Position numbers and translations under genes: made by a program. A DNA stretch of 64,000 bases. Source: Clostridia bacterium (GTDB lineage: Bacteria > Bacillota > Clostridia > Christensenellales > Aristaeellaceae). The DNA is taken from assembly GCA_045546035.1 (NCBI GenBank), contig JAZQCB010000035.1, positions 6,445-70,444 of the forward strand, given 5' to 3'. Shown piece after piece: positions 26,803 through 33,777 of the stretch; position 1 is the stretch's first letter, and each line of letters starts with the position of its first letter. A model generated the notes under the pieces. The model ran no database searches and had not been told where the DNA came from. It saw only the letters and a list, made by a program, of their open reading frames with translations.

Positions 26803-28461
26803 ATGAGAAAAACAGCGTTTTGGCTGAGCCTGCTGCTCGCACTGTGCGTGATAGCCGGCTGCGCGGCGGCGGAGGGCGTCGCCGTGAAGAAGCTGATCCC
26901 GGCGGATAAAAGCGTGACGGCCTATGTGGGGCGGACAACGGAACCGCTGAAGATCAAGATTGCTCCGGCCAACGCCTCGGATCAGACGCTGACCTGGGCT
27001 TCTGAAAACGCGCAGATCGCGGAGGTGAACGACGAGGGCGCGGTGACCGGCGTCGCCGTCGGAAAAACGGTGGTGACCGCTACGGCGGAGGGCGGAAAAA
27101 GCTGCAAAATCACGGTGACCGTCCTGCAGGGGGCGGAGGCGATCACCCTCGATCCGTCGGAACTCTCCGTCGCGAAAGGGAAAAAAGTGAAGGTTACGGC
27201 GAAGGTGTCCCCGGCCGGCGCAGCAAAGACGAAGATCCGCTGGACTTCCTCCGACCCGAAGGTGGCCGTCGTCCGGGACGGAACCGTGACCGGCAAAAAG
27301 GGCGGCTCCGCGGTGATTACCGCCGAAACGGAGGACGGCGGCGCCTCTGCGGAGATCGGGGTCACGGTGGTGGAGCCGGTGACCTCCGTCAAGGTCAAAA
27401 AAAGCAAGCTCACCCTGACGGAAGGGGATGAGACGGTCATCGAGGCGGTGGTGCTGCCTTCTTCGGCGGGCAATCAAAAACTGACGTGGGCCTCTTCGAA
27501 CCAGAAGGTGGCGACGGTTTCCGACGACGGAACCGTTTCCGCGGTGAGCCCCGGGAAAGCGACGATTACGGCGGCCTCCACCGACGGCACGAAGAAATCG
27601 GCGAAGGTTCAGGTCACCGTCGGTACCATTAACGTGGCCACCATCCGGAAAATTGATTTTTACCGCGGGAATTACAATCCCACGATCAAAAACAACTGCG
27701 CAAAGACGATCACCGGCGTCCAGATGTGGTTTACCTCCTATAAACGGGACGGCGAGGTCATCTACACCGGTCTGTATGACTTTGACGACATGAAGCTGAA
27801 GCCAGGGAAATCCACGGACGACTTTTACGCTCCCGTCCAGAACCGCAGCAGCATTGCCTACATCGAGGCGCGGGTCAGCATGGTGACCTTTGCGGACGGA
27901 AGCACAAAAACCATTCCCTTCGACAGAGCCAAGGTCACGACCTACGGCACGAAGCCGAAGACCCTTGCGAACGCGGGCACGTCCACCGGCGCGGGCGCAG
28001 CCGTGAACACCGCTGAAGCGGCGGAGCAAACGGCGGAAGAGCGTGCGGCGGCGGACGCTGCTGAAGAGGCAGGGCAGACGGCGGAGGAGCGTGCCGCGGC
28101 GGAAGCGAAAGCTGCAAAGGAAGCGAAAGCCGCGGACGAAAAAGCGGCTGCCGGGCAAACGGAGGAAGAGCAGGTGGCGGCGCAGATGGCGGCGGATGCC
28201 GGCCTTGCGGGCGCCGGCAGCGCCGGGAATTCGTTTGAGGGAACCTGGAAGGGCAGCGGCGCGACGCTGGAGCTGGCGCAGGACGGAAGCGGGAAGCTGA
28301 CTGTCGCCGGCAGCACCTATCTGCTGACCTGGACGGCGAACGGTTCCACACTGTCCCTGAAGCAGCCGAACAACGCCAACGCTTCTGTCATCAAGGGAAC
28401 CCTCAGCGGCGATACCCTGACCCTGACGATCGCTCAGGCGCAGCTGAAGCTGAAGCGGTAA
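26803..28461 (+). CDS. secreted protein with three Big_2 Ig-like repeats, Ala/Glu-rich linker and small C-terminal beta domain
   Basis: Signal peptide; three LTWASxN/xVAxVxDGxVT repeats; AEQTAEERAAA repeat linker. Confidence 0.8.
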   Translation: MRKTAFWLSLLLALCVIAGCAAAEGVAVKKLIPADKSVTAYVGRTTEPLKIKIAPANASDQTLTWASENAQIAEVNDEGAVTGVAVGKTVVTATAEGGKSCKITVTVLQGAEAITLDPSELSVAKGKKVKVTAKVSPAGAAKTKIRWTSSDPKVAVVRDGTVTGKKGGSAVITAETEDGGASAEIGVTVVEPVTSVKVKKSKLTLTEGDETVIEAVVLPSSAGNQKLTWASSNQKVATVSDDGTVSAVSPGKATITAASTDGTKKSAKVQVTVGTINVATIRKIDFYRGNYNPTIKNNCAKTITGVQMWFTSYKRDGEVIYTGLYDFDDMKLKPGKSTDDFYAPVQNRSSIAYIEARVSMVTFADGSTKTIPFDRAKVTTYGTKPKTLANAGTSTGAGAAVNTAEAAEQTAEERAAADAAEEAGQTAEERAAAEAKAAKEAKAADEKAAAGQTEEEQVAAQMAADAGLAGAGSAGNSFEGTWKGSGATLELAQDGSGKLTVAGSTYLLTWTANGSTLSLKQPNNANASVIKGTLSGDTLTLTIAQAQLKLKR

Positions 28462-28688
28462 GCTGCAACAGGATTCGCTGTGGAAGCGGAGAATCCGCCC
28501 CGGGCGGTGAAAATGCCCGTCGGGGCGGTGAAAGAACCGGATGGGCTTTCAGGAACCTTCCGGGGCGACCAAGGCACAGAACGGAGCGGCGAAAGAACCG
28601 GCGAGCGGGACTTTTCGATCCGGAGGGCGGCGGGCCTTCTTCCAGAGGAAGGAGGTACCCGCCGTTTTTTCACACAGCCCTTTTGATT

Positions 28689-28707
28689 AAACCATTTATA
28701 TTGGTTT
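28689..28707. promoter_or_regulatory. palindromic operator 1, AAACCA-N7-TGGTTT
   Basis: aaacca-tttatat-tggttt; same arms as the site at 28753-28771. Confidence 0.65.
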
Positions 28708-28747
28708 TGGTGCTTCGGATTTCCCGAAAAAAGGCTCTTTTTCCCCG

Positions 28748-28776
28748 TTGACAAACCAAGAATTCTGGTTTAAGAT
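28748..28776 (+). promoter_or_regulatory. sigma-70 promoter of the repressor/mutagenesis cassette with operator 2 in its spacer
   Basis: TTGACA-17bp-TAAGAT; aaacca-agaattc-tggttt (28753-28771) spans the whole spacer. Confidence 0.8.
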
Positions 28777-28780
28777 GTTC

Positions 28781-28846
28781 GCAGAAGCAGAAGCAGAAGC
28801 AGAAGCAGAAGCAGAAGCAGAAGCAGAAGCAGAAGCAGAAGCGGAA
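28781..28846 (+). repeat. (GCAGAA)10 plus GCGGAA hexanucleotide microsatellite
   Basis: Ten perfect units 28781-28840 and one imperfect unit, immediately after the -10 box. Confidence 0.97.
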
Positions 28847-28895
28847 ATCGAAGCGGGCGGCGGCCCGGCGAAAAAGGAAAGAAGGCGGGAATCGG

Positions 28896-29735
28896 ATGAG
28901 CAGAGCGGCGGCCGACGGAGCAAAAAAACGAAACCTCGAAGGATACGGGCTGAAGATCAAGGCCTATCGTAAGAAGGCGGGTCTGTCGGCGGAGGAGCTG
29001 GCCCGGGCGCTGGGGGTGACGGTCGGCTCCGTGCGGAACTGGGAATGCGGGCTTTCCCGCCCCGATCCGGAATCCCTTTTCCGGCTCTTCTCCGCGCTGG
29101 ATGTGGATCCGAACGCATTCTTTGGCATCCGGGGCGTGGGAGCATCCCTGTCGGAAAGGGAAAGAGGCCTGGTGGGGCTTTTCCGTTCCATGGACGAGCG
29201 GGGCCGGGCGGATTTCTTCGCCGTGGGGGAGGCGCTGGCCGGGCGATGCCGCGAGATCCGGCTGCGGGACATCCGGGAAAGGCTGGTGGCCCTGCCGGAC
29301 TTTGGGCGCAGCGCCGCGGCGGGCGCCGGGGACGAATGGCCCCAGCAGGCGGAGGCGGAAACCGTGCTTTTGTACAACAGGCCGGAAACCGCCGGCGCGG
29401 ATGAGATCATTACCGTGACCGGGCACAGCATGGAGCCCGCCTATCATGATCATGACCGGATCCTGGTCCGGCACTGCGCGGAGACGCGGATCGGCCAGGT
29501 TTACGTGTTTTCCCTGCCGGGGCAGGGCATCGTGATCAAGGAAGCGGCGAAGGACCGGCTGCATTCCCGGAACGAGGAATACGAGGATATCATTCCTACG
29601 GAAGAGGGCGCCGGGCTGATCGGCCGGGTGCTGGGGATCATCGATGAGACCATGATTCCGACGGGGGAGGAAAAGGCGCTGTATGAGGAAGCCGTGAGGC
29701 AGGAGGAGGGATGCGGCCATGTTGCTGGCCTGTGA
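28896..29735 (+). CDS. XRE-HTH + S24 peptidase repressor (LexA/CI-like)
   Basis: HTH LSAEELARALGVTVGSVRNWECG; Ala-Gly cleavage site (SAAAG); catalytic Ser (GHSMEP) and Lys (VIKE). Confidence 0.88.
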   Translation: MSRAAADGAKKRNLEGYGLKIKAYRKKAGLSAEELARALGVTVGSVRNWECGLSRPDPESLFRLFSALDVDPNAFFGIRGVGASLSERERGLVGLFRSMDERGRADFFAVGEALAGRCREIRLRDIRERLVALPDFGRSAAAGAGDEWPQQAEAETVLLYNRPETAGADEIITVTGHSMEPAYHDHDRILVRHCAETRIGQVYVFSLPGQGIVIKEAAKDRLHSRNEEYEDIIPTEEGAGLIGRVLGIIDETMIPTGEEKALYEEAVRQEEGCGHVAGL

Positions 29736-29907
29736 AAAATGTCGGTATGTCTTTGCTGTTCAATCGCTTCCGGACCGGTGTCCGGATTGCGGTCATCACC
29801 GCCTTCGCGCCGCGACCCACGAGGAGGAGGACTGGTATTACGACCTGCAGCGGGAAAAGGAAAACTGGCCGCTGCTGGGGACGGCTCCGACGGGAAAGGC
29901 GGGATGA
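29719..29907 (+). CDS. small zinc-ribbon protein
   Basis: CEKC...CPDC; GGAGG RBS; overlaps the repressor stop. Confidence 0.7.
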   Translation: MLLACEKCRYVFAVQSLPDRCPDCGHHRLRAATHEEEDWYYDLQREKENWPLLGTAPTGKAG

Positions 29908-29910
29908 AGC

Positions 29911-30177
29911 GTGGCGGATCGGATTTATGTCAGAGTGAATTCCGACTTTGACAATACCGGGTTCATGCAGCCCCGATCCATTACCTGGAGGGATGGCCGC
30001 GTCTTCAAGATCGATCAGGTAACCGATTTTCGCCCCGCCTCCTCCGTGGGTATGGGCATCCGGGGGGACTGCTATACCGTCGTCATCCGGAACGAAAAGA
30101 AGCATCTGTTCTTTGAACGGGCGGATTCCCGGTTCGACAACAGCGTGGGCCGCTGGTTTGTGGAAGCGGCCGATTAA
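29911..30177 (+). CDS. small conserved protein associated with Y-family polymerase loci
   Basis: GTG start 3 nt after the previous stop; pattern PRSITWRDGRVFKID..DFRPA...LFFE...RWFVE recalled from clostridial dinB/umuC neighbours. Confidence 0.65.
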   Translation: MADRIYVRVNSDFDNTGFMQPRSITWRDGRVFKIDQVTDFRPASSVGMGIRGDCYTVVIRNEKKHLFFERADSRFDNSVGRWFVEAAD

Positions 30178-30236
30178 AGAGCCGCGGCGCCAGGGAAAAA
30201 TGAGGGCAGGAAACGCCGGAAAGGAGGGAAACGGGG

Positions 30237-31880
30237 GTGCGGAAAACCTTTGTGGCCATCGACCTGAAATCCTATTACGCCAGCGTCGAGCTGGCGGACC
30301 GGAACTTCGATCCCCTGTCGACGAACCTGGTGGTGGCGGACGAATCCAGAACGGAAAAAACGATCTGCCTGGCCGTATCCCCCTCCCTGAAGGCGCACGG
30401 AATTTCCGGAAGGGCCCGGCTGTTCGAGGTGATCCAGCGGGTTCGGGAGATCAACGCGCAGCGAATGAAAAACGCCGTCCGGCAGGGCCTCCTTCCGAAA
30501 GGGGAGGACGGACAGTATCATTTTACCGGCAGCTCCTTTAACGCGGCGGAGCTGGAAAAGGATCCGACCCTGGAGCTGACCTATATCGTCGCGCCGCCCC
30601 GGATGAAGCTGTATGAGGAAATCTCCACCCGGATCTTCGGCATCTATATGAAATACATCAGCGACGAGGACATCCATGTATACAGCATCGACGAATGCTT
30701 CATGGACGTGACGGGTTATCTGAAAACCTACGGCATGACGGCGCACGAGCTGGCCATGAAAATGATCCGGGAGGTGCTGTATACCACCCGGATTACCGCC
30801 ACGGCCGGGATCGGCAGCAATCTGTATCTGGCCAAGATCGCCATGGACATCGTGGCCAAGCATGTGCCGGCGGACAAGGACGGGGTCCGGATCGCGGAAC
30901 TGGACGAGACGAGCTATCGGCGTCTGCTCTGGTGCCACCGGCCGCTGACGGATTTCTGGCGCGTGGGGCACGGGATCGCCGCGAGGGTGGCGGCGCTGGG
31001 ATGCTTTACCATGGGGGATATCGCCCGGCTCAGCGAGATCAACGAGGATCTGCTGTACCGGGCCCTGGGGATCAACGCGGAGCTGCTGATCGACCACGCC
31101 TGGGGATGGGAACCGACGGAAATCGCGGCCATCAAGGCCTATCGCCCGGAAACCAGCAGCCTGTCCTCCGGGCAGGTGCTGTCGGAGCCGTATAACGCCG
31201 CGGACGGGAAGCTGATCGTCCGGGAGATGACGGAGCTGCTGGCGCTGGACCTGGTCCGGAAAAACCTGGTGACCCGGCAGGTGACCCTGACAATTGGCTA
31301 TGACCGGGAGAGCCTGATCGTTCTGAGCCCCGGAAAAGGCATGAAGGATACGGTTTACGGCGTGGCAAAAACCGGGAAGGCCTACGCGGGAGCGGTGGTG
31401 TCCGATCCATACGGCCGGCCCCAGCCGAAGCACGCCCACGGGACCGGCAACCTGGATCACTATACCTCCTCCACCCGGGCTATCCGCGAAGCAATGATGG
31501 CGCTGTATGACCGGATCGTGGATCCGGATCTTCTGATCCGAAGGGTGATCCTGGCCGCCTGCAACCTGATCCGGCCGGATGATGTCCCGGAGGAGGGGCC
31601 GCGGCAGCTGGATTTCTTTACGGATTACGAGGAAGAGGCCCGGCGGAAGGAAGCGGAAAGGGCCGCGGAGGCCAAGGAGAACCGGCTGCAGCGGGCGACC
31701 CTGATCATGCAGGAGCGCTTCGGAAAAAACGCGGTGCTCAAGGGCATGAACCTGGAGGAAAAGGGAACCACCGTCGCCCGGAATCAGCAGATCGGCGGGC
31801 ATCGATCCGGAGAGGAAAAGCCAAAGAAGGAGGGAAAACGCCATGGCGAAGGGAATCACCGGGAAGGAGCCGGATCCTGA
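30237..31880 (+). CDS. Y-family (UmuC/ImpB/UvrX-like) translesion DNA polymerase
   Basis: IDLKSYYASVE, YSIDECFMD catalytic motif, AGIGSNLYLAK, FWRVGHG; C-terminal QLDFF clamp-binding-like motif and ERFGKNAV. Confidence 0.92.
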   Translation: MRKTFVAIDLKSYYASVELADRNFDPLSTNLVVADESRTEKTICLAVSPSLKAHGISGRARLFEVIQRVREINAQRMKNAVRQGLLPKGEDGQYHFTGSSFNAAELEKDPTLELTYIVAPPRMKLYEEISTRIFGIYMKYISDEDIHVYSIDECFMDVTGYLKTYGMTAHELAMKMIREVLYTTRITATAGIGSNLYLAKIAMDIVAKHVPADKDGVRIAELDETSYRRLLWCHRPLTDFWRVGHGIAARVAALGCFTMGDIARLSEINEDLLYRALGINAELLIDHAWGWEPTEIAAIKAYRPETSSLSSGQVLSEPYNAADGKLIVREMTELLALDLVRKNLVTRQVTLTIGYDRESLIVLSPGKGMKDTVYGVAKTGKAYAGAVVSDPYGRPQPKHAHGTGNLDHYTSSTRAIREAMMALYDRIVDPDLLIRRVILAACNLIRPDDVPEEGPRQLDFFTDYEEEARRKEAERAAEAKENRLQRATLIMQERFGKNAVLKGMNLEEKGTTVARNQQIGGHRSGEEKPKKEGKRHGEGNHREGAGS

Positions 31881-32331
31881 GGTGGTTTACGGGGATATTT
31901 TTCATCATCCCCACTGGCGCTCGCCGAAGCACCCGCCCATGAGCCTGTATGACCGGGCGGCGCAGTTTGCCCCCTTCGCGGCGCTGACCGGATACGAGGA
32001 CATGATTGACGAGGAGGCCCGACAGGTGGACCGCCGGATTGAACTGGGCGAGGAGGAGATGGAAGCCCTGAACGAGGCGCTGTCGGGCGTCCGGAAGGCG
32101 CTGGAGGCGGGGAAAAGGCCGGAGGTTCTGCTGACCTGGTTTATCCAGGATCCCCTGAAAGCCGGAGGACGGTATGAAACGGCCCGGGAAAAGGTCAAAG
32201 GCTTTGACCCAGCGGGAGGCCGGCTGATTCTGGAGCGGAAAAGCGGGCGATCCGGCGCGAACGCGGAAATCCGCCTGGAAGATATCCTGACGATGGAGGC
32301 CGCCTTGACAGAACGGGGAAAAGAGGTATGA
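31843..32331 (+). CDS. YolD-like protein (Gram-positive UmuD analogue)
   Basis: MSLYDRAAQFAPFAALTGY motif; overlaps the polymerase end. Confidence 0.8.
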   Translation: MAKGITGKEPDPEVVYGDIFHHPHWRSPKHPPMSLYDRAAQFAPFAALTGYEDMIDEEARQVDRRIELGEEEMEALNEALSGVRKALEAGKRPEVLLTWFIQDPLKAGGRYETAREKVKGFDPAGGRLILERKSGRSGANAEIRLEDILTMEAALTERGKEV

Positions 32332-32433
32332 TAGGAGAAGAACGGCAAAGGGCGCCGCGGCGGTTCGCGGATACGGGAGATCCCCTTTGCCGGGCGGAGC
32401 CAACGCCGACGGGCAGCAAGAGGAAGTGACGGA

Positions 32434-33777
32434 ATGGCCGCGGTTCAGACGGATTTTGCCCAGGGCTCGGTGAAACGGTTGATTCTTTCCCAGGCGCTGC
32501 CGCTGACGCTGGCCCAGATGGTGCAGCTGCTGTACAATATCGTGGATCGGGTGTATATCGGCCATCTGGAGGGCGTGGGAGATCTGGCCCTGACCGGATT
32601 GGGGATTACGTTTCCGGTCATCGTTCTGATCGCCGCCTTTACCAATCTGTACGGCAGCGGCGGGGCGACGCTCTTTGCCATCGCCCGGGGCCGGGGACAG
32701 ACGGACGAGGCGGAAAACATTCTCGGCAATGTTTTTGCCCTGCAGCTGGGGACGGCGCTGGTGCTGACGGTCTTTTGCTACGCGCTGCGCAGGCCGATTC
32801 TTTTTCTTTTCGGCGCCAGCGAGCAGTCATTCTTCTACGCGGATCAATATCTTCGCGTCTATCTGATCGGGACGGCTTTTTCCATGCTGGGAACCGGCCT
32901 GAACAGCTATATCAACGCCCAGGGGTTTCCCCGGATCGGCATGATGACGACGGTTCTGGGGGCGGTCATCAATATCGCCCTGGATCCGGTTTTTATTTTT
33001 TCGCTCAACATGGGGGTCCGGGGCGCGGCACTGGCGACGGTGATCAGCCAGAGTGTGTCCGCGGCGTGGGTGCTGCGCTTTCTGACGGGGAAAAAGGCCC
33101 TGCAGAAGCTCCGGCTGTCCAGAATCCATATTCAGCGGGAGCGGACGGGCCGAATCCTGAGCCTGGGCTTTCCGGGCTTTGTCATGCAGGCGACCAACAG
33201 CCTGGTCAACATCGTCTGCAATACCCAGCTGCAAAGCTGGGGCGGGGATCTGTATGTGGAAATCATGACGGTGCTCAACTCCGTGCGCGAGATGACGGCC
33301 CTGCCGGTGCAGGGAATCACCGCCGGATCCCAGCCGGTGCTGGGCTTCAACTATGGCGCGAGACGGGGTGAAAGGGTGAAGGAAGGCATCCGGTTTACCG
33401 CGGCGCTTGGCTTTGGCTATACGCTGATCACCTGGATCCTGGTCATGCTTTTCCCGAAGCCGCTGATCGGCATCTTCTCGGAGGATCCGGAAACCATCGC
33501 CGTGGGCGCCAGGATGCTGAACATCTATTTCTTCGGCTTCGTGTTCATGGCCTTCCAGTTCTGCGGTCAGACCACCTTCCAGGCCCTGGGAAAGGCCCGG
33601 TACGCCATTTTCTTTTCGCTGCTGCGGAAGGTCATCATCGTCGTTCCTCTGACGTTGGCGCTGCCGGCCATGGGGCTCGGCGTACGGGGCGTTTTCCTGG
33701 CGGAGCCCATCTCCAACCTCATCGGCGGCCTGGCCTGCTTCCTGACCATGTGGCGGGTGGTATACCGGAGGCTGTAG
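32434..33777 (+). CDS. MATE family efflux transporter
   Basis: QLLYNIVDRVYIG, INIALDPVFIF, GVRGAALATVISQ; about 12 TM segments. Confidence 0.92.
   Translation: MAAVQTDFAQGSVKRLILSQALPLTLAQMVQLLYNIVDRVYIGHLEGVGDLALTGLGITFPVIVLIAAFTNLYGSGGATLFAIARGRGQTDEAENILGNVFALQLGTALVLTVFCYALRRPILFLFGASEQSFFYADQYLRVYLIGTAFSMLGTGLNSYINAQGFPRIGMMTTVLGAVINIALDPVFIFSLNMGVRGAALATVISQSVSAAWVLRFLTGKKALQKLRLSRIHIQRERTGRILSLGFPGFVMQATNSLVNIVCNTQLQSWGGDLYVEIMTVLNSVREMTALPVQGITAGSQPVLGFNYGARRGERVKEGIRFTAALGFGYTLITWILVMLFPKPLIGIFSEDPETIAVGARMLNIYFFGFVFMAFQFCGQTTFQALGKARYAIFFSLLRKVIIVVPLTLALPAMGLGVRGVFLAEPISNLIGGLACFLTMWRVVYRRL

What the first reader, a model, noticed from the sequence alone, without database searches (positions are those of the whole stretch)
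28689..32331. Self-regulated mutagenesis cassette with a readable operator: AAACCA-N7-TGGTTT occurs twice at the promoter of an HTH-S24 repressor
Seen: two 19-bp palindromes with identical arms (28689-28707 and 28753-28771, 64 bp apart, about six helical turns). The second fills the spacer of a TTGACA-17-TAAGAT promoter. Downstream in one direction lie an HTH-S24 repressor (Ala-Gly site, Ser/Lys dyad), a Zn-ribbon protein, a small conserved protein, a Y-family polymerase and a YolD-like gene. Established: S24 repressors self-cleave on activated RecA; YolD plus a UmuC-like polymerase is the Gram-positive Pol V-like pair; the Firmicute LexA box is GAAC-N4-GTTC, which is different. Inference: a LexA-independent, autorepressed SOS-mutagenesis operon with a new operator, possibly using DNA looping.
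Basis: partly seen in the sequence, partly recalled or inferred. Interest (0 to 1): 0.7.

Follow-up and report, generated by a model that had tools for sequence, protein, structure and literature searches.

The report
Self-repressed error-prone DNA polymerase operon
A rumen Clostridia bacterium carries a five-gene operon for a damage-bypass (mutagenic) DNA polymerase whose first gene encodes a LexA/lambda-CI-like self-cleaving repressor, and that repressor's predicted 19-bp binding site sits inside its own promoter and is conserved in relatives; this is a new variant of a design already known from streptococci, not a new principle.

Summary
AAACCA-N7-TGGTTT occurs exactly twice in 64 kb (28689-28707 and 28753-28771), and the second copy fills the spacer of a TTGACA-17-TAAGAT promoter.

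Comparative data support the operator reading. In 21 of 25 loci whose repressor is at least 46% identical, a (A/T)(A/T)(A/G)CCA-N7-TGG(T/C)TT dyad lies in the -35/-10 spacer (17 loci) or exactly 14 bp past the -10 (4 loci). This is a 32-fold enrichment over background.

The repressor keeps an invariant Ala142-Gly143, Ser178 and Lys215. Downstream lie a 62-aa Zn-ribbon gene (real by strain-level synonymous variation), an 88-aa all-beta protein, a UvrX/YqjW-type Y-family polymerase, and a 162-aa protein. The 162-aa protein is only a remote YolD relative: sub-threshold in Pfam, with an SH3/Sm-like predicted barrel.

Rumen metatranscriptome contigs bridge the gene junctions. No LexA box is present.

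The same p88-pol-p162 module elsewhere sits behind a LexA paralogue with a different dyad, or behind LexA-box-like sites with no repressor gene.

The concept is already established for HdiR cassettes in Streptococcaceae and UmuDAb in Acinetobacter. New here are the operator, the Clostridial clade and the p88 partner. The spacing data are mixed, so DNA looping is only weakly supported.

The parts
28622..28670 (+). Intrinsic terminator of the upstream Big_2 gene (GC-rich hairpin followed by U6). It marks the 5' boundary of the cassette's control region.
   Evidence: RNA fold -32.8 kcal/mol, z = -5.06, 0 of 200 shuffles as stable. The consensus scan did not call it, probably because the stem has an internal bulge.
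28689..28707 (.). Auxiliary operator O1: AAACCA-tttatat-TGGTTT, 64 bp upstream of O2.
   Evidence: Exact match. Auxiliary upstream sites with at most 1 mismatch recur in L007/8, L009, L021, L024 and L027. No strain variants fall inside it in 4 metagenomes.
28748..28776 (+). Sigma-70-type promoter TTGACA-17-TAAGAT of the operon.
   Evidence: 10/12 consensus match. TTGAC plus an AnnnT -10 at the same position relative to the dyad in 17 related loci. RNA contig depth is zero at 28500-28773 in 4 metatranscriptomes.
28753..28771 (.). Primary operator O2: AAACCA-agaattc-TGGTTT, filling the -35/-10 spacer.
   Evidence: Unconstrained flanking positions 1-3 and 17-19 are A/A/A(G) and T(C)/T/T in 13-17 of 19 non-redundant sites. 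No strain variants fall inside it.
28781..28846 (+). (GCAGAA)x11 perfect hexanucleotide repeat in the predicted 5' leader. Its role is unknown and it is specific to this window.
   Evidence: TRF score 125, 98% matches. Absent from the leaders of 18 related loci. Assemblies break here in 4 DNA runs.
28896..29735 (+). Repressor (279 aa): XRE-type HTH (residues 21-73) plus an S24 autopeptidase domain (139-245). Predicted cleavage site Ala142-Gly143, with Ser178 and Lys215.
   Evidence: Pfam HTH_3 E 2.3e-13, Peptidase_S24 E 2.6e-13. A142, G143, S178 and K215 are invariant in 23 homologues. The N-terminal domain matches P22 C2, 434 and ImmR; the C-terminal domain matches LexA, UmuD and CI. 28% identical (E 4e-16) to the streptococcal cassette repressor.
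29719..29907 (+). 62-aa Zn-ribbon protein (CxxC-N12-CxxC), overlapping the repressor's 3' end by 17 nt. Specific to this window.
   Evidence: Weak rubredoxin-like hit, E 6e-5, below cutoff. GGAGGAGG Shine-Dalgarno 9 nt upstream. 4 of 5 strain variants are synonymous in this frame and non-synonymous in both other frames. No counterpart between repressor and polymerase in relatives.
29911..30177 (+). p88: 88-aa all-beta protein of unknown function, a constant partner of this polymerase subfamily.
   Evidence: No Pfam or NCBIfam family. 6098 homologous clusters, all unnamed. AlphaFold pLDDT 81.5 with six strands. No PDB fold match, best E 0.17. Found as p88-pol-p16x in 13 loci regardless of the upstream regulator.
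30237..31880 (+). Y-family DNA polymerase (547 aa) of the YqjW/UvrX-like type.
   Evidence: IMS E 7e-26, IMS_C E 3e-10. Full-length tblastn matches to SPbeta UvrX (24%) and streptococcal UmuC (27%). QLDFF clamp motif, RecA-N-terminus-like stretch and ...RNxQIGGHR tail align with those proteins. AAAGGAGG Shine-Dalgarno.
31843..32331 (+). p162: remote YolD-like small subunit candidate (162 aa), overlapping the polymerase's 3' end by 38 nt.
   Evidence: No Pfam hit of its own. 6 of 17 family members hit YolD PF08863 below threshold, best E 3.4e-4. The model shows a low-confidence (mostly pLDDT <70) N-terminus (1-60) with the conserved DRAAQFAPFAALTGY motif, a helix, and a 5-stranded barrel that matches SH3/Sm/WYL folds with E 0.03-0.3. 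3011 homologous clusters, all unnamed.

Best explanation
This is a self-contained, autorepressed SOS-type translesion-synthesis operon of an uncultured rumen Clostridia bacterium.

A dimer of the lambda-CI/HdiR-like repressor (XRE HTH + S24 domain) is proposed to bind the dyad AAACCA-N7-TGGTTT. O2 fills the -35/-10 spacer of the only promoter, so bound repressor would exclude RNA polymerase. O1, 64 bp upstream, probably adds cooperative binding.

After DNA damage, RecA filaments would stimulate self-cleavage at Ala142-Gly143 by Ser178/Lys215. This would separate the DNA-binding domain from the dimerisation domain and derepress one transcript that encodes the repressor, a Zn-ribbon protein, p88, a UvrX/YqjW-type Y-family polymerase and a remote YolD-like small subunit.

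The polymerase would be recruited through its QLDFF clamp motif and its RecA-N-terminus-like motif. New repressor made from the same transcript would shut the operon off again.

Shown here: the dyads and the promoter; conservation of the dyad and its co-occurrence with this repressor clade; the conserved catalytic residues; the gene content; and transcription with junction-spanning RNA contigs.

Inferred: that the repressor binds the dyads, RecA dependence, damage induction, mutagenic output, and the roles of p88, the Zn-ribbon protein and p162.
For: The dyads are exact and unique in 64 kb. O2 lies within the promoter spacer.

NNNCCA-N7-TGGNNN occurs at 5.29 per kb upstream of 25 repressor genes, against 0.167 per kb in 215 kb of flanking DNA. 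It sits in the promoter spacer in 17 loci and exactly 14 bp after the -10 in 4 loci. The unconstrained flanking bases are conserved.

The dyad is absent from the 29-37% identical repressor clade, which has a different conserved promoter core. It is also absent from modules behind a LexA paralogue or with no repressor.

A142, G143, S178 and K215 are invariant. The spacings AG->Ser = 35 and Ser->Lys = 37 resemble LexA (comparison from memory).

No strain variants fall in the operators or hexamers, although 5 lie in the adjacent intergenic DNA.

Genes are tightly packed or overlapping with strong Shine-Dalgarno sequences. No internal promoter or + strand terminator is predicted.

RNA contigs 30078-30599, 31667-32030 and 31700-31927 bridge the gene junctions, and no RNA contigs lie upstream of the promoter.

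An orthologous module in L076 has LexA-box-like sites over its promoter, which ties the module to the SOS response.

The streptococcal cassette in phi29854 has the same architecture. Published precedent: PMC8565304, PMC9578287, PMC3901139.
Against: There is no direct evidence of binding, cleavage or induction.

The metatranscriptome 'RNA' contigs can contain DNA, and their depth is uninformative.

The CCA/TGG core is invariant by construction of the search, so only the flanks and the position count as independent evidence.

Four of 25 related loci show no dyad.

Some LexA-like proteins are not RecA-dependent, for example IrvR (PMC7101444), and HdiR needs ClpP for full derepression (PMC8565304).

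The YolD assignment is below threshold.

The rest of the genome is unseen, so a host LexA and indirect LexA control cannot be excluded.
Confidence: 0.75

Rival explanations
1. The repressor is the immunity (CI/ImmR-type) repressor of a prophage or integrative element, and the dyads are its lysogeny operators. The polymerase genes are merely cargo, as UvrX-YolD are in SPbeta or UmuC is in the phi1207.3/Tn1207.3 elements.
For: The N-terminal domain resembles P22 C2, 434 and ICEBs1 ImmR. Homologous polymerases occur on phage or ICE records and on 'Bacteriophage sp.' gut contigs. One related module (L074) sits beside HTH_17 and AAA_13 genes and iteron-like repeats. The cassette lies in different genomic contexts in different organisms.
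Against: Neighbours in the window are housekeeping-type genes: cation efflux, Big_2 surface protein, MATE and PGA_cap. No integrase, recombinase or phage gene was seen in the neighbouring genes examined, roughly 25.4-35.0 kb of the window. The cassette's GC content equals its flanks. In more than 20 loci the repressor is directly upstream of and co-oriented with the polymerase module, with no divergent lytic-type operon.
Confidence: 0.07
2. The operon is autorepressed through the dyads as proposed, but the inducing signal is not RecA-stimulated cleavage. It could instead be proteolysis by Clp or another protease, another stress, or an accessory protein such as p88 or the Zn-ribbon protein acting as co- or anti-repressor.
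For: There are precedents. IrvR is a LexA-like protein that works without RecA (PMC7101444). HdiR responds to heat and needs ClpP (PMC8565304). UmuDAb needs the small co-repressor DdrR (PMC7273328, PMC11332147). In L012, L050 and L052, p88 follows a repressor homologue with no polymerase detected.
Against: The Ala-Gly, Ser and Lys residues are strictly conserved with LexA-like spacing. The cargo is an SOS-type polymerase with a RecA-binding-type motif. An orthologous module carries LexA-box-like sites. p88 stays with the polymerase when the repressor is replaced or absent, which fits a polymerase partner better than a co-repressor.
Confidence: 0.13
3. Only O2 is a functional operator. O1 is a fortuitous or vestigial copy next to the upstream terminator, and no cooperative binding or looping takes place.
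For: Auxiliary-site spacings in relatives are heterogeneous: 63-64, 86-87, 111 and 119-120 bp, equal to 6.0-6.1, 8.2-8.3, 10.6 and 11.4 turns at 10.5 bp per turn. The 111- and 119-120-bp values are not integral. Several loci have only one site (L005, L013, L014, L028, L049).
Against: A second 12/12 match within 300 bp has a chance expectation of roughly 1e-5 to 1e-4. Sites with at most 1 mismatch recur upstream in at least 6 other loci. Three independent loci share the 63-64 bp spacing. O1 carries no strain variants, whereas three variant positions lie 2-9 bp downstream of it.
Confidence: 0.3

Closest known systems
HdiR-regulated SOS-mutagenesis cassette of Streptococcaceae (S. uberis, Varhimo et al. 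2007, cited in PMC8565304 and PMC3901139; L. lactis HdiR, Savijoki et al. 2003). An annotated example is the cassette on S. pyogenes phi29854/Tn1207.3 (L068).
   Same: An XRE-HTH + S24 repressor sits directly upstream of, and co-oriented with, a UmuC/UvrX-type Y-family polymerase, with tiny ORFs in between and small accessory ORFs after it. The repressors are homologous over both domains (28% identity, E 4e-16). The polymerases share the clamp motif, RecA-NT-like motif and IGGH tail. Both are LexA-independent minimal SOS-like regulons (literature).
   Different: The repressor is 50 aa longer and only 28% identical. The operator sequence is different and is newly inferred here. The streptococcal cassette has a DUF5960 protein and lacks p88 and the Zn-ribbon protein. 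Its 122-aa accessory protein is not detectably related to p162 beyond a weak C-terminal match (hhalign probability 7%). The host is an anaerobic rumen Clostridia lineage. I could not read the Varhimo paper itself because it is not held.
B. subtilis YqjW-YqjX and SPbeta UvrX-YolD, the proposed Gram-positive Pol V-like mutasome (PMC6511836, PMC12926913).
   Same: A Y-family polymerase with a RecA-NT-like motif and conserved tail, encoded next to a small protein that has an unstructured N-terminal arm and an SH3-like barrel.
   Different: Those operons are controlled by host LexA through GAAC-N4-GTTC boxes and carry no repressor of their own. The gene order is yolD then uvrX, whereas here the small subunit follows the polymerase. 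p162 is 50 aa longer than YolD and fails the Pfam YolD threshold. Those operons have no p88.
UmuDAb (+DdrR) of Acinetobacter (PMC7273328, PMC11332147, PMC4807011).
   Same: A dedicated S24 self-cleaving repressor that controls error-prone polymerase genes in place of LexA, with unusual operators and a small accessory regulator.
   Different: UmuDAb is a UmuD derivative, not an XRE/CI-type protein. It regulates several unlinked umuDC loci, and it belongs to a different phylum with a different polymerase type.
Non-canonical XRE-type 'LexA' of Bacteroidetes (PMC8565304).
   Same: A CI-like HTH + S24 architecture, dyad operators with fixed spacers, and RecA-type cleavage determinants.
   Different: Those proteins control a full SOS regulon, form a Bacteroidetes-restricted clade, and use different motifs (e.g. 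GGA-N5-TCC). Here the only sites seen in 64 kb are at the repressor's own promoter.
Lambda CI / P22 C2 phage repressors.
   Same: The domain architecture and the principle of paired operators with cooperative binding. Cooperative binding across 5-7 integral helical turns has been described for lambda repressor (from memory, Hochschild and Ptashne 1986).
   Different: There is no phage context here, and the repressed promoter drives the repressor's own operon rather than lytic genes.

Membership tests
S24 self-cleaving transcriptional repressors (LexA / CI / HdiR type) | N-terminal DNA-binding domain plus C-terminal Peptidase_S24 domain | tested here: met
   Pfam HTH_3 E 2.3e-13 (residues 21-73) and Peptidase_S24 E 2.6e-13 (139-245). 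PDB profile hits to P22 C2 and 434 (N-terminal) and to LexA, UmuD and CI (C-terminal).
S24 self-cleaving transcriptional repressors (LexA / CI / HdiR type) | Ala-Gly scissile bond and Ser/Lys catalytic dyad | tested here: met
   A142, G143, S178 (in GHSMEP) and K215 are invariant across 23 homologues of 26-65% identity.
S24 self-cleaving transcriptional repressors (LexA / CI / HdiR type) | RecA*-stimulated autocleavage | not testable with these tools
   This needs biochemistry or genetics. It is inferred only from the conserved residues.
S24 self-cleaving transcriptional repressors (LexA / CI / HdiR type) | Dyad operator overlapping its own promoter (autoregulation) | tested here: met
   O2 lies in the -35/-10 spacer. 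The dyad is conserved at the promoter in 21 of 25 related loci, a 32-fold enrichment. It co-occurs only with this repressor clade. Physical binding was not tested.
HdiR-type streptococcal SOS-mutagenesis cassette | XRE/S24 repressor gene adjacent to and co-oriented with a UmuC-like polymerase gene and small accessory ORFs | tested here: met
   Window gene order compared with phi29854: repressor, 51 aa, 42 aa, polymerase, 122 aa, 99 aa. Repressors are 28% identical, E 4e-16.
HdiR-type streptococcal SOS-mutagenesis cassette | Orthology of the accessory genes | tested here: not met
   The streptococcal 99-aa protein is DUF5960 (E 9e-32), and the window has no such protein. The 122-aa protein against the p162 family gives hhalign probability 7%. 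p88 and the Zn-ribbon protein have no streptococcal counterpart.
HdiR-type streptococcal SOS-mutagenesis cassette | Induction by DNA damage and UV mutagenesis | not testable with these tools
   Only baseline presence in rumen metatranscriptomes was seen.
YolD family (Pfam PF08863) | Match to the family profile at the curated threshold (27.5 bits) | tested here: not met
   The window's p162 has no hit even at E <= 10. 6 of 17 family members hit below threshold, best E 3.4e-4. hhalign against SPbeta YolD gives probability 2%.
YolD family (Pfam PF08863) | Unstructured N-terminal arm followed by an SH3/Sm-like beta-barrel (PMC6511836, PMC12926913) | tested here: inconclusive
   The model has a low-confidence (mostly pLDDT <70) N-terminus (1-60) carrying the most conserved motif, a helix at 70-88, and a 5-strand barrel with pLDDT 84-88. 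Foldseek hits to bL19, Gemin6/7 and the WYL proteins BrxR, CapW and PafBC have probability up to 0.98 but E only 0.03-0.3. The arm motif DRAAQFAPFAALTGY against YolD DRGTIKWTSMMLPEH was aligned by eye only.
YolD family (Pfam PF08863) | Encoded next to a YqjW/UvrX-type polymerase | tested here: met
   The gene overlaps the polymerase's 3' end. This adjacency is kept in more than 25 loci.
YqjW / UvrX / UvrX-like Y-family polymerases | IMS catalytic core with the acidic catalytic residues | tested here: met
   IMS E 7e-26 and IMS_C E 3e-10. The motifs AIDLKSYYASVE and SIDECFMDVT are present in the translation (reading them as the catalytic Asp/Glu motifs is from knowledge of the family).
YqjW / UvrX / UvrX-like Y-family polymerases | C-terminal clamp-binding motif, RecA-NT-like motif and conserved tail | tested here: met
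   QLDFF, ENRLQRATLIMQERFGKNAVLKG and ARNQQIGGHR align with SPbeta UvrX and streptococcal UmuC and are conserved in about 30 relatives. tblastn runs to the last residues of UvrX. There was no Pfam DUF4113 hit at E <= 0.01.
Canonical Firmicute LexA regulon member | CGAAC-N4-GTTCG LexA box at the promoter | tested here: not met
   No site with at most 2 mismatches lies in 28400-28900. The window total is 20 against 35.7 expected. By contrast the repressor-less orthologous module in L076 has two such sites over its promoter.

The most novel reading that the evidence does not exclude
p88-pol-p162 may be a widespread three-gene translesion module of gut and rumen Clostridia that has not been described before. 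In this reading p88 (about 6,100 protein clusters, no Pfam family, no PDB fold match) is a new obligatory subunit or regulator of a Gram-positive Pol V-like mutasome. The module would be 'plug-and-play' with respect to control: the same genes are found behind an XRE/S24 repressor with AAACCA-N7-TGGTTT, behind a more distant XRE/S24 clade with a different promoter motif, behind a dedicated LexA paralogue with GGAGC-N5-GCTCC dyads, or behind host-type LexA boxes.
Probability: 0.35. Interest if true: 0.6.

Novelty: new variant of a known kind. Interest (0 to 1): 0.45.

Why it matters
The principle is already known: an error-prone polymerase kept silent by its own RecA-sensitive S24 repressor. This locus therefore adds breadth and not a new mechanism. 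It contributes three things.

(1) It gives a precise, experimentally addressable operator (consensus AAACCA-N7-TGGTTT in the promoter spacer) for a large clade of uncultured gut and rumen Clostridia repressors. No operator for this clade was found in the literature I searched.

(2) It shows that a very common polymerase module in these bacteria always carries an uncharacterised 88-aa beta-protein and a 160-aa remote YolD-like protein. Both are good candidates for new mutasome subunits.

(3) It is a natural example of regulator swapping on one conserved module, which is useful for studying how stress-induced mutagenesis is wired in gut anaerobes.

Tried and rejected
- A single-sequence locus scan with the repressor found only HTH-only relatives. 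It was replaced by an alignment-based scan.
- The Varhimo 2007 paper is not held, so the streptococcal operator sequence could not be compared.
- hhalign of the p162 family against the single sequences of SPbeta YolD and the streptococcal 122-aa protein gave probabilities of 2% and 7%. This is underpowered and not decisive.
- A PDB sequence-profile search with the p162 family found nothing significant.
- The p88 fold search found no match.
- Rfam found nothing at 28300-32600, so the leader repeat and the upstream repeats belong to no known RNA family.
- The question of (GCAGAA)n repeat-length polymorphism could not be answered, because contigs break in the repeat in all four DNA runs.
- A search for Zn-ribbon mini-ORFs between repressor and polymerase in 14 relatives found none. 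The only weak hit is the N-terminus of a 451-aa protein downstream of the L074 module.
- Helical phasing of the auxiliary sites was tested and is not uniform, so looping is not endorsed.
- tblastn with a LexA paralogue found no LexA in the window. This is uninformative for the whole genome.
- Mobile-element carriage in the window was considered and rejected: GC content equals the flanks and the neighbours are housekeeping genes.

Full report
OBSERVATION.

The two 19-bp dyads are real and sit at the stated coordinates: 28689-28707 (AAACCAtttatatTGGTTT, O1) and 28753-28771 (AAACCAagaattcTGGTTT, O2). They are the only exact matches in the window. The 8-base core ACCA-N7-TGGT also occurs only there, against 0.36 expected by chance, and 3 of 100 shuffles reach two matches.

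O2 fills the 17-bp spacer of TTGACA(28748)-TAAGAT(28776), a 10/12 sigma-70-type match. O1 lies directly after a strong hairpin followed by U6 (28622-28670; -32.8 kcal/mol, z = -5.1). That hairpin ends the upstream Big_2 surface-protein gene. The control region is therefore a compact 100 bp between a terminator and the promoter.

It occupies most of the predicted 5' leader.

GENES.

28896-29735 encodes a 279-aa HTH_3 + Peptidase_S24 protein, with each domain at E ~2e-13. In an alignment of 23 homologues (26-65% identity), Ala142-Gly143, Ser178 (in GxSMEP) and Lys215 are invariant. Its N-terminal domain resembles P22 C2, 434 repressor and ICEBs1 ImmR. Its C-terminal domain resembles LexA, UmuD and lambda CI.

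29719-29907 is a 62-aa CxxC-N12-CxxC ORF. It has a strong GGAGGAGG ribosome-binding site. No relative has a counterpart at that position. It still behaves as a gene: of five strain-level variants seen in metagenomes, four are synonymous in its frame and non-synonymous in both other frames.

29911-30177 (p88) has no Pfam or NCBIfam family. It belongs to about 6,100 unnamed protein clusters. It is predicted with pLDDT 81.5 as a six-stranded all-beta protein, and it has no significant PDB fold match.

30237-31880 is a Y-family polymerase (IMS E 7e-26, IMS_C E 3e-10). It aligns end to end with SPbeta UvrX (24%) and with the streptococcal element-borne UmuC (27%). Its C-terminus carries a QLDFF clamp-type motif, a RecA-N-terminus-like stretch (ENRLQRATLIMQERFGKNAVLKG) and an ...RNQQIGGHR tail. 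These are shared with UvrX, UmuC and about 30 relatives. They are the hallmarks that Timinskas and Venclovas describe for the YqjW/UvrX/UvrX-like groups (PMC6511836).

31843-32331 (p162) overlaps the polymerase's end by 38 nt and has an AAGGAGG ribosome-binding site.

IS p162 'YolD-LIKE'?

By the family's own criterion it is not. The window protein has no Pfam YolD hit even at E <= 10. Only 6 of 17 homologues hit PF08863, all below the gathering score, with a best E of 3.4e-4. hhalign against SPbeta YolD gives 2% probability.

Three lines of evidence still point to a remote relationship. First, the sub-threshold matches are colinear with the YolD profile. Second, the model shows a low-confidence, probably unstructured N-terminus that carries the family's most conserved motif (DRAAQFAPFAALTGY), then a helix, then a five-stranded barrel. 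That barrel hits SH3/Sm/WYL-type folds: bL19, Gemin6/7, BrxR, CapW and PafBC, with probability up to 0.98 but E only 0.03-0.3. This is the fold class predicted for YolD (PMC6511836). Third, the gene always abuts a UvrX-type polymerase gene.

A 2026 survey reports that small subunits of this polymerase type are linked only by a homologous unstructured N-terminal arm (PMC12926913). p162 fits that picture. I therefore treat it as working like YolD, with family membership unproven.

IS THE DYAD AN OPERATOR?

This was the key test. An alignment-based scan retrieved 59 loci, mostly rumen and gut Clostridia MAGs, in addition to contigs found through protein look-ups.

Upstream of the 25 repressor genes that are at least 46% identical to the window's, the relaxed pattern NNNCCA-N7-TGGNNN occurs 45 times in 8.5 kb. 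In 215 kb of flanking DNA it occurs 36 times. That is 5.29 against 0.167 per kb, a 32-fold enrichment.

In 17 loci the dyad fills the spacer of a TTGACAA(A)-dyad-AnnAT promoter exactly as in the window. In 4 loci (L016, L018, L024, L026) its centre lies exactly 14 bp past the end of the -10. Four loci show none.

The CCA/TGG core is fixed by the search, so it carries no independent weight. The unconstrained flanks do: positions 1-3 are A/A/A(G), and positions 17-19 are T(C)/T/T in 13-17 of 19 non-redundant sites. The 7-bp spacer is 69% A+T. The DNA around these sites, including leaders and upstream regions, is not alignable. The conservation is therefore not simple inheritance.

The dyad also tracks the repressor and not the cargo. 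It is absent from the 29-37% identical repressor clade, whose promoters share a different core, TTTACA-nn-CGCA-N6-TGTG-nTATnnT. It is absent from copies of the same polymerase module that have another regulator or none.

Within the species, four metagenome strains show five variants in the intergenic DNA around the operators, and none inside either dyad or either promoter hexamer. This is consistent with constraint, but the numbers are small.

OPERON STRUCTURE AND EXPRESSION.

The genes overlap or are separated by 3-60 nt, and each has a strong Shine-Dalgarno sequence. No promoter or + strand terminator is predicted inside the cassette.

The region occurs in sheep, goat and bovine gut metagenomes and in rumen metatranscriptomes. 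RNA-run contigs of at least 99% identity cover about 28911-32600. They bridge p88->pol (30078-30599) and pol->p162 (31667-32030 and 31700-31927). None lies at 28500-28773, upstream of the promoter.

Contig depth is a poor measure of expression, and DNA carry-over cannot be excluded. This is supportive evidence and not proof.

Contigs also bridge p162 into the downstream MATE gene (32188-32505 and 32292-32460), and no terminator separates the two. A TTGACA-16-TATGAT promoter-like site lies at 32305-32332.

LexA INDEPENDENCE.

No CGAAC-N4-GTTCG site with at most 2 mismatches lies near the promoter, and the window holds fewer such sites than chance would give (20 against 35.7). Only 64 kb of the genome is visible, so a host LexA cannot be excluded.

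A useful contrast emerged. The trio p88-pol-p16x is a constant unit, and the regulator in front of it varies.
- In L070/71 it is the XRE/S24 repressor with the dyad.
- In L072/73 it is a 207-aa divergent LexA paralogue (TIGR00498, E 5e-23, below cutoff). Its TTGACA...TATAGT promoter is bracketed by two perfect GGAGC-N5-GCTCC dyads.
- In L076/77 there is no repressor gene, but two LexA-box-like sites (cGAACaaatGTgC and aGAACaattaTTCG) overlap a TTTACA...TATCAT promoter.

This ties the module to the SOS response. It also shows that the window's version has a private repressor in place of LexA control.

LOOPING.

Auxiliary sites are clearly non-random. Sites with at most 1 mismatch to the 12 specified bases recur upstream in at least six other loci. 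Their distances from the primary site are 63-64 bp (window, L009, L021), 86-87 bp (L007/8, L027), 111 bp (L016, L022, L024) and 119-120 bp (L010, L029). Some loci have a further site 28-31 bp from the primary site (downstream in most, upstream in L012).

At 10.5 bp per turn these distances are 6.0-6.1, 8.2-8.3, 10.6 and 11.4 turns, which are not uniformly in phase. Cooperative binding to two sites is plausible in the window, where 64 bp is close to 6 turns. A general looping architecture is not supported.

COMPARISON WITH WHAT IS KNOWN.

The design is established. It consists of an XRE/S24 'LexA-like' repressor that regulates itself and an error-prone polymerase. HdiR does this in Lactococcus and Streptococcus, and in S. 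uberis it regulates only a mutagenic cassette. UmuDAb plays the same role in Acinetobacter. Bacteroidetes use CI-like S24 proteins as their LexA (PMC8565304, PMC9578287, PMC3901139).

An annotated streptococcal example (phi29854/Tn1207.3) has the order repressor, 51 aa, 42 aa, Y-family polymerase, 122 aa, 99 aa. Its repressor is 28% identical to the window's over both domains (E 4e-16).

The differences are as follows. The accessory genes are not orthologous: the streptococcal 99-aa protein is DUF5960, and its 122-aa protein is not detectably related to p162. The streptococcal cassette lacks p88 and the Zn-ribbon protein. The operator is different.

I found no paper describing this Clostridial clade, its operator or the p88 family. 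This rests on a full-text search of an open-access library and is not proof of absence.

VERDICT.

YolD is a remote relationship below threshold, and the spacing data for looping are mixed.

It is a new variant of a known kind. Interest is moderate and lies mainly in three things: the directly testable operator, the uncharacterised p88 and p162 partners of a very common gut-anaerobe polymerase, and the evidence for regulator swapping on a conserved module.

Noticed in passing
window 28781-28846: A perfect (GCAGAA)x11 hexanucleotide repeat fills the 5' leader between the -10 and the repressor's ribosome-binding site. No related locus has it, and metagenome assemblies break inside it in all four DNA runs examined. 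Copy-number variation, and any effect on mRNA stability or translation, are therefore unknown.
   Followed up: partly
window 28500-28601: Three direct copies of a ~20-nt unit (CGGGGCGGTGAAAGAACCGG and variants), plus an inverted repeat (28496-28508 / 28555-28567), lie in the 3' untranslated stretch between the Big_2 gene's stop codon and its terminator. There is no Rfam match.
   Followed up: partly
window 32305-33777: A MATE efflux gene follows p162 with no terminator between them. RNA contigs bridge the junction, and a TTGACA-16-TATGAT promoter-like site lies inside the end of p162. From memory, E. coli dinF is a MATE gene co-transcribed with lexA. No relative has a MATE gene in this position, so the adjacency may be coincidental.
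   Followed up: partly
L072/L073 3730-3825 and 3845-4468: The same p88-pol-p16x module sits behind a divergent 207-aa LexA paralogue. Its promoter is flanked by two perfect GGAGC-AAAAC-GCTCC dyads about 69 bp apart. This is a second private repressor/operator pair for this module.
   Followed up: partly
L076 4420-4480: A repressor-less copy of the module has two Firmicute LexA-box-like sites (cGAACaaatGTgC and aGAACaattaTTCG) overlapping its TTTACA...TATCAT promoter.
   Followed up: partly
L042 7184-8041: Here the p162-family protein is 285 aa long. A YolD-like N-terminal arm region is fused to a full SRAP (SOS response-associated peptidase) domain (Pfam E 2.8e-31). This links two kinds of proposed Y-family polymerase partners in one polypeptide. 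A frameshift or assembly artefact was not excluded.
   Followed up: partly
L006 3168-3731, L007 4228-4746, L052 6138-7312: A YpsA/SLOG-family gene (E 3e-25 to 3e-30) follows the short-polymerase cassettes. In L052 it follows repressor, p88 and a protein with a LexA_DNA_bind domain, with no polymerase present. Repressor homologues therefore control other cargo as well.
   Followed up: partly
L074/L075 4200-4400: Upstream of a repressor-less p88-pol-p164 module lies a stretch of iteron-like GGAACA(A/G)G repeats. HTH_17, AAA_13 and RstR-like genes are nearby, which suggests that this copy rides on a plasmid or integrative element.
   Followed up: no
L030-L054, promoters about 60-110 bp upstream of the repressor start: The 29-37% identical repressor clade shares a different promoter-embedded motif, TTTACA-nn-CGCA-N6-TGTG-nTATnnT. 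This may be its own imperfect dyad operator overlapping an extended -10.
   Followed up: partly
window 30178-30236: The 59-bp spacer between p88 and the polymerase gene carries 6 strain-level variants. It is the most variable stretch of the cassette, and in one metagenome contig it is replaced by unrelated sequence (joint 30164/30238).
   Followed up: no
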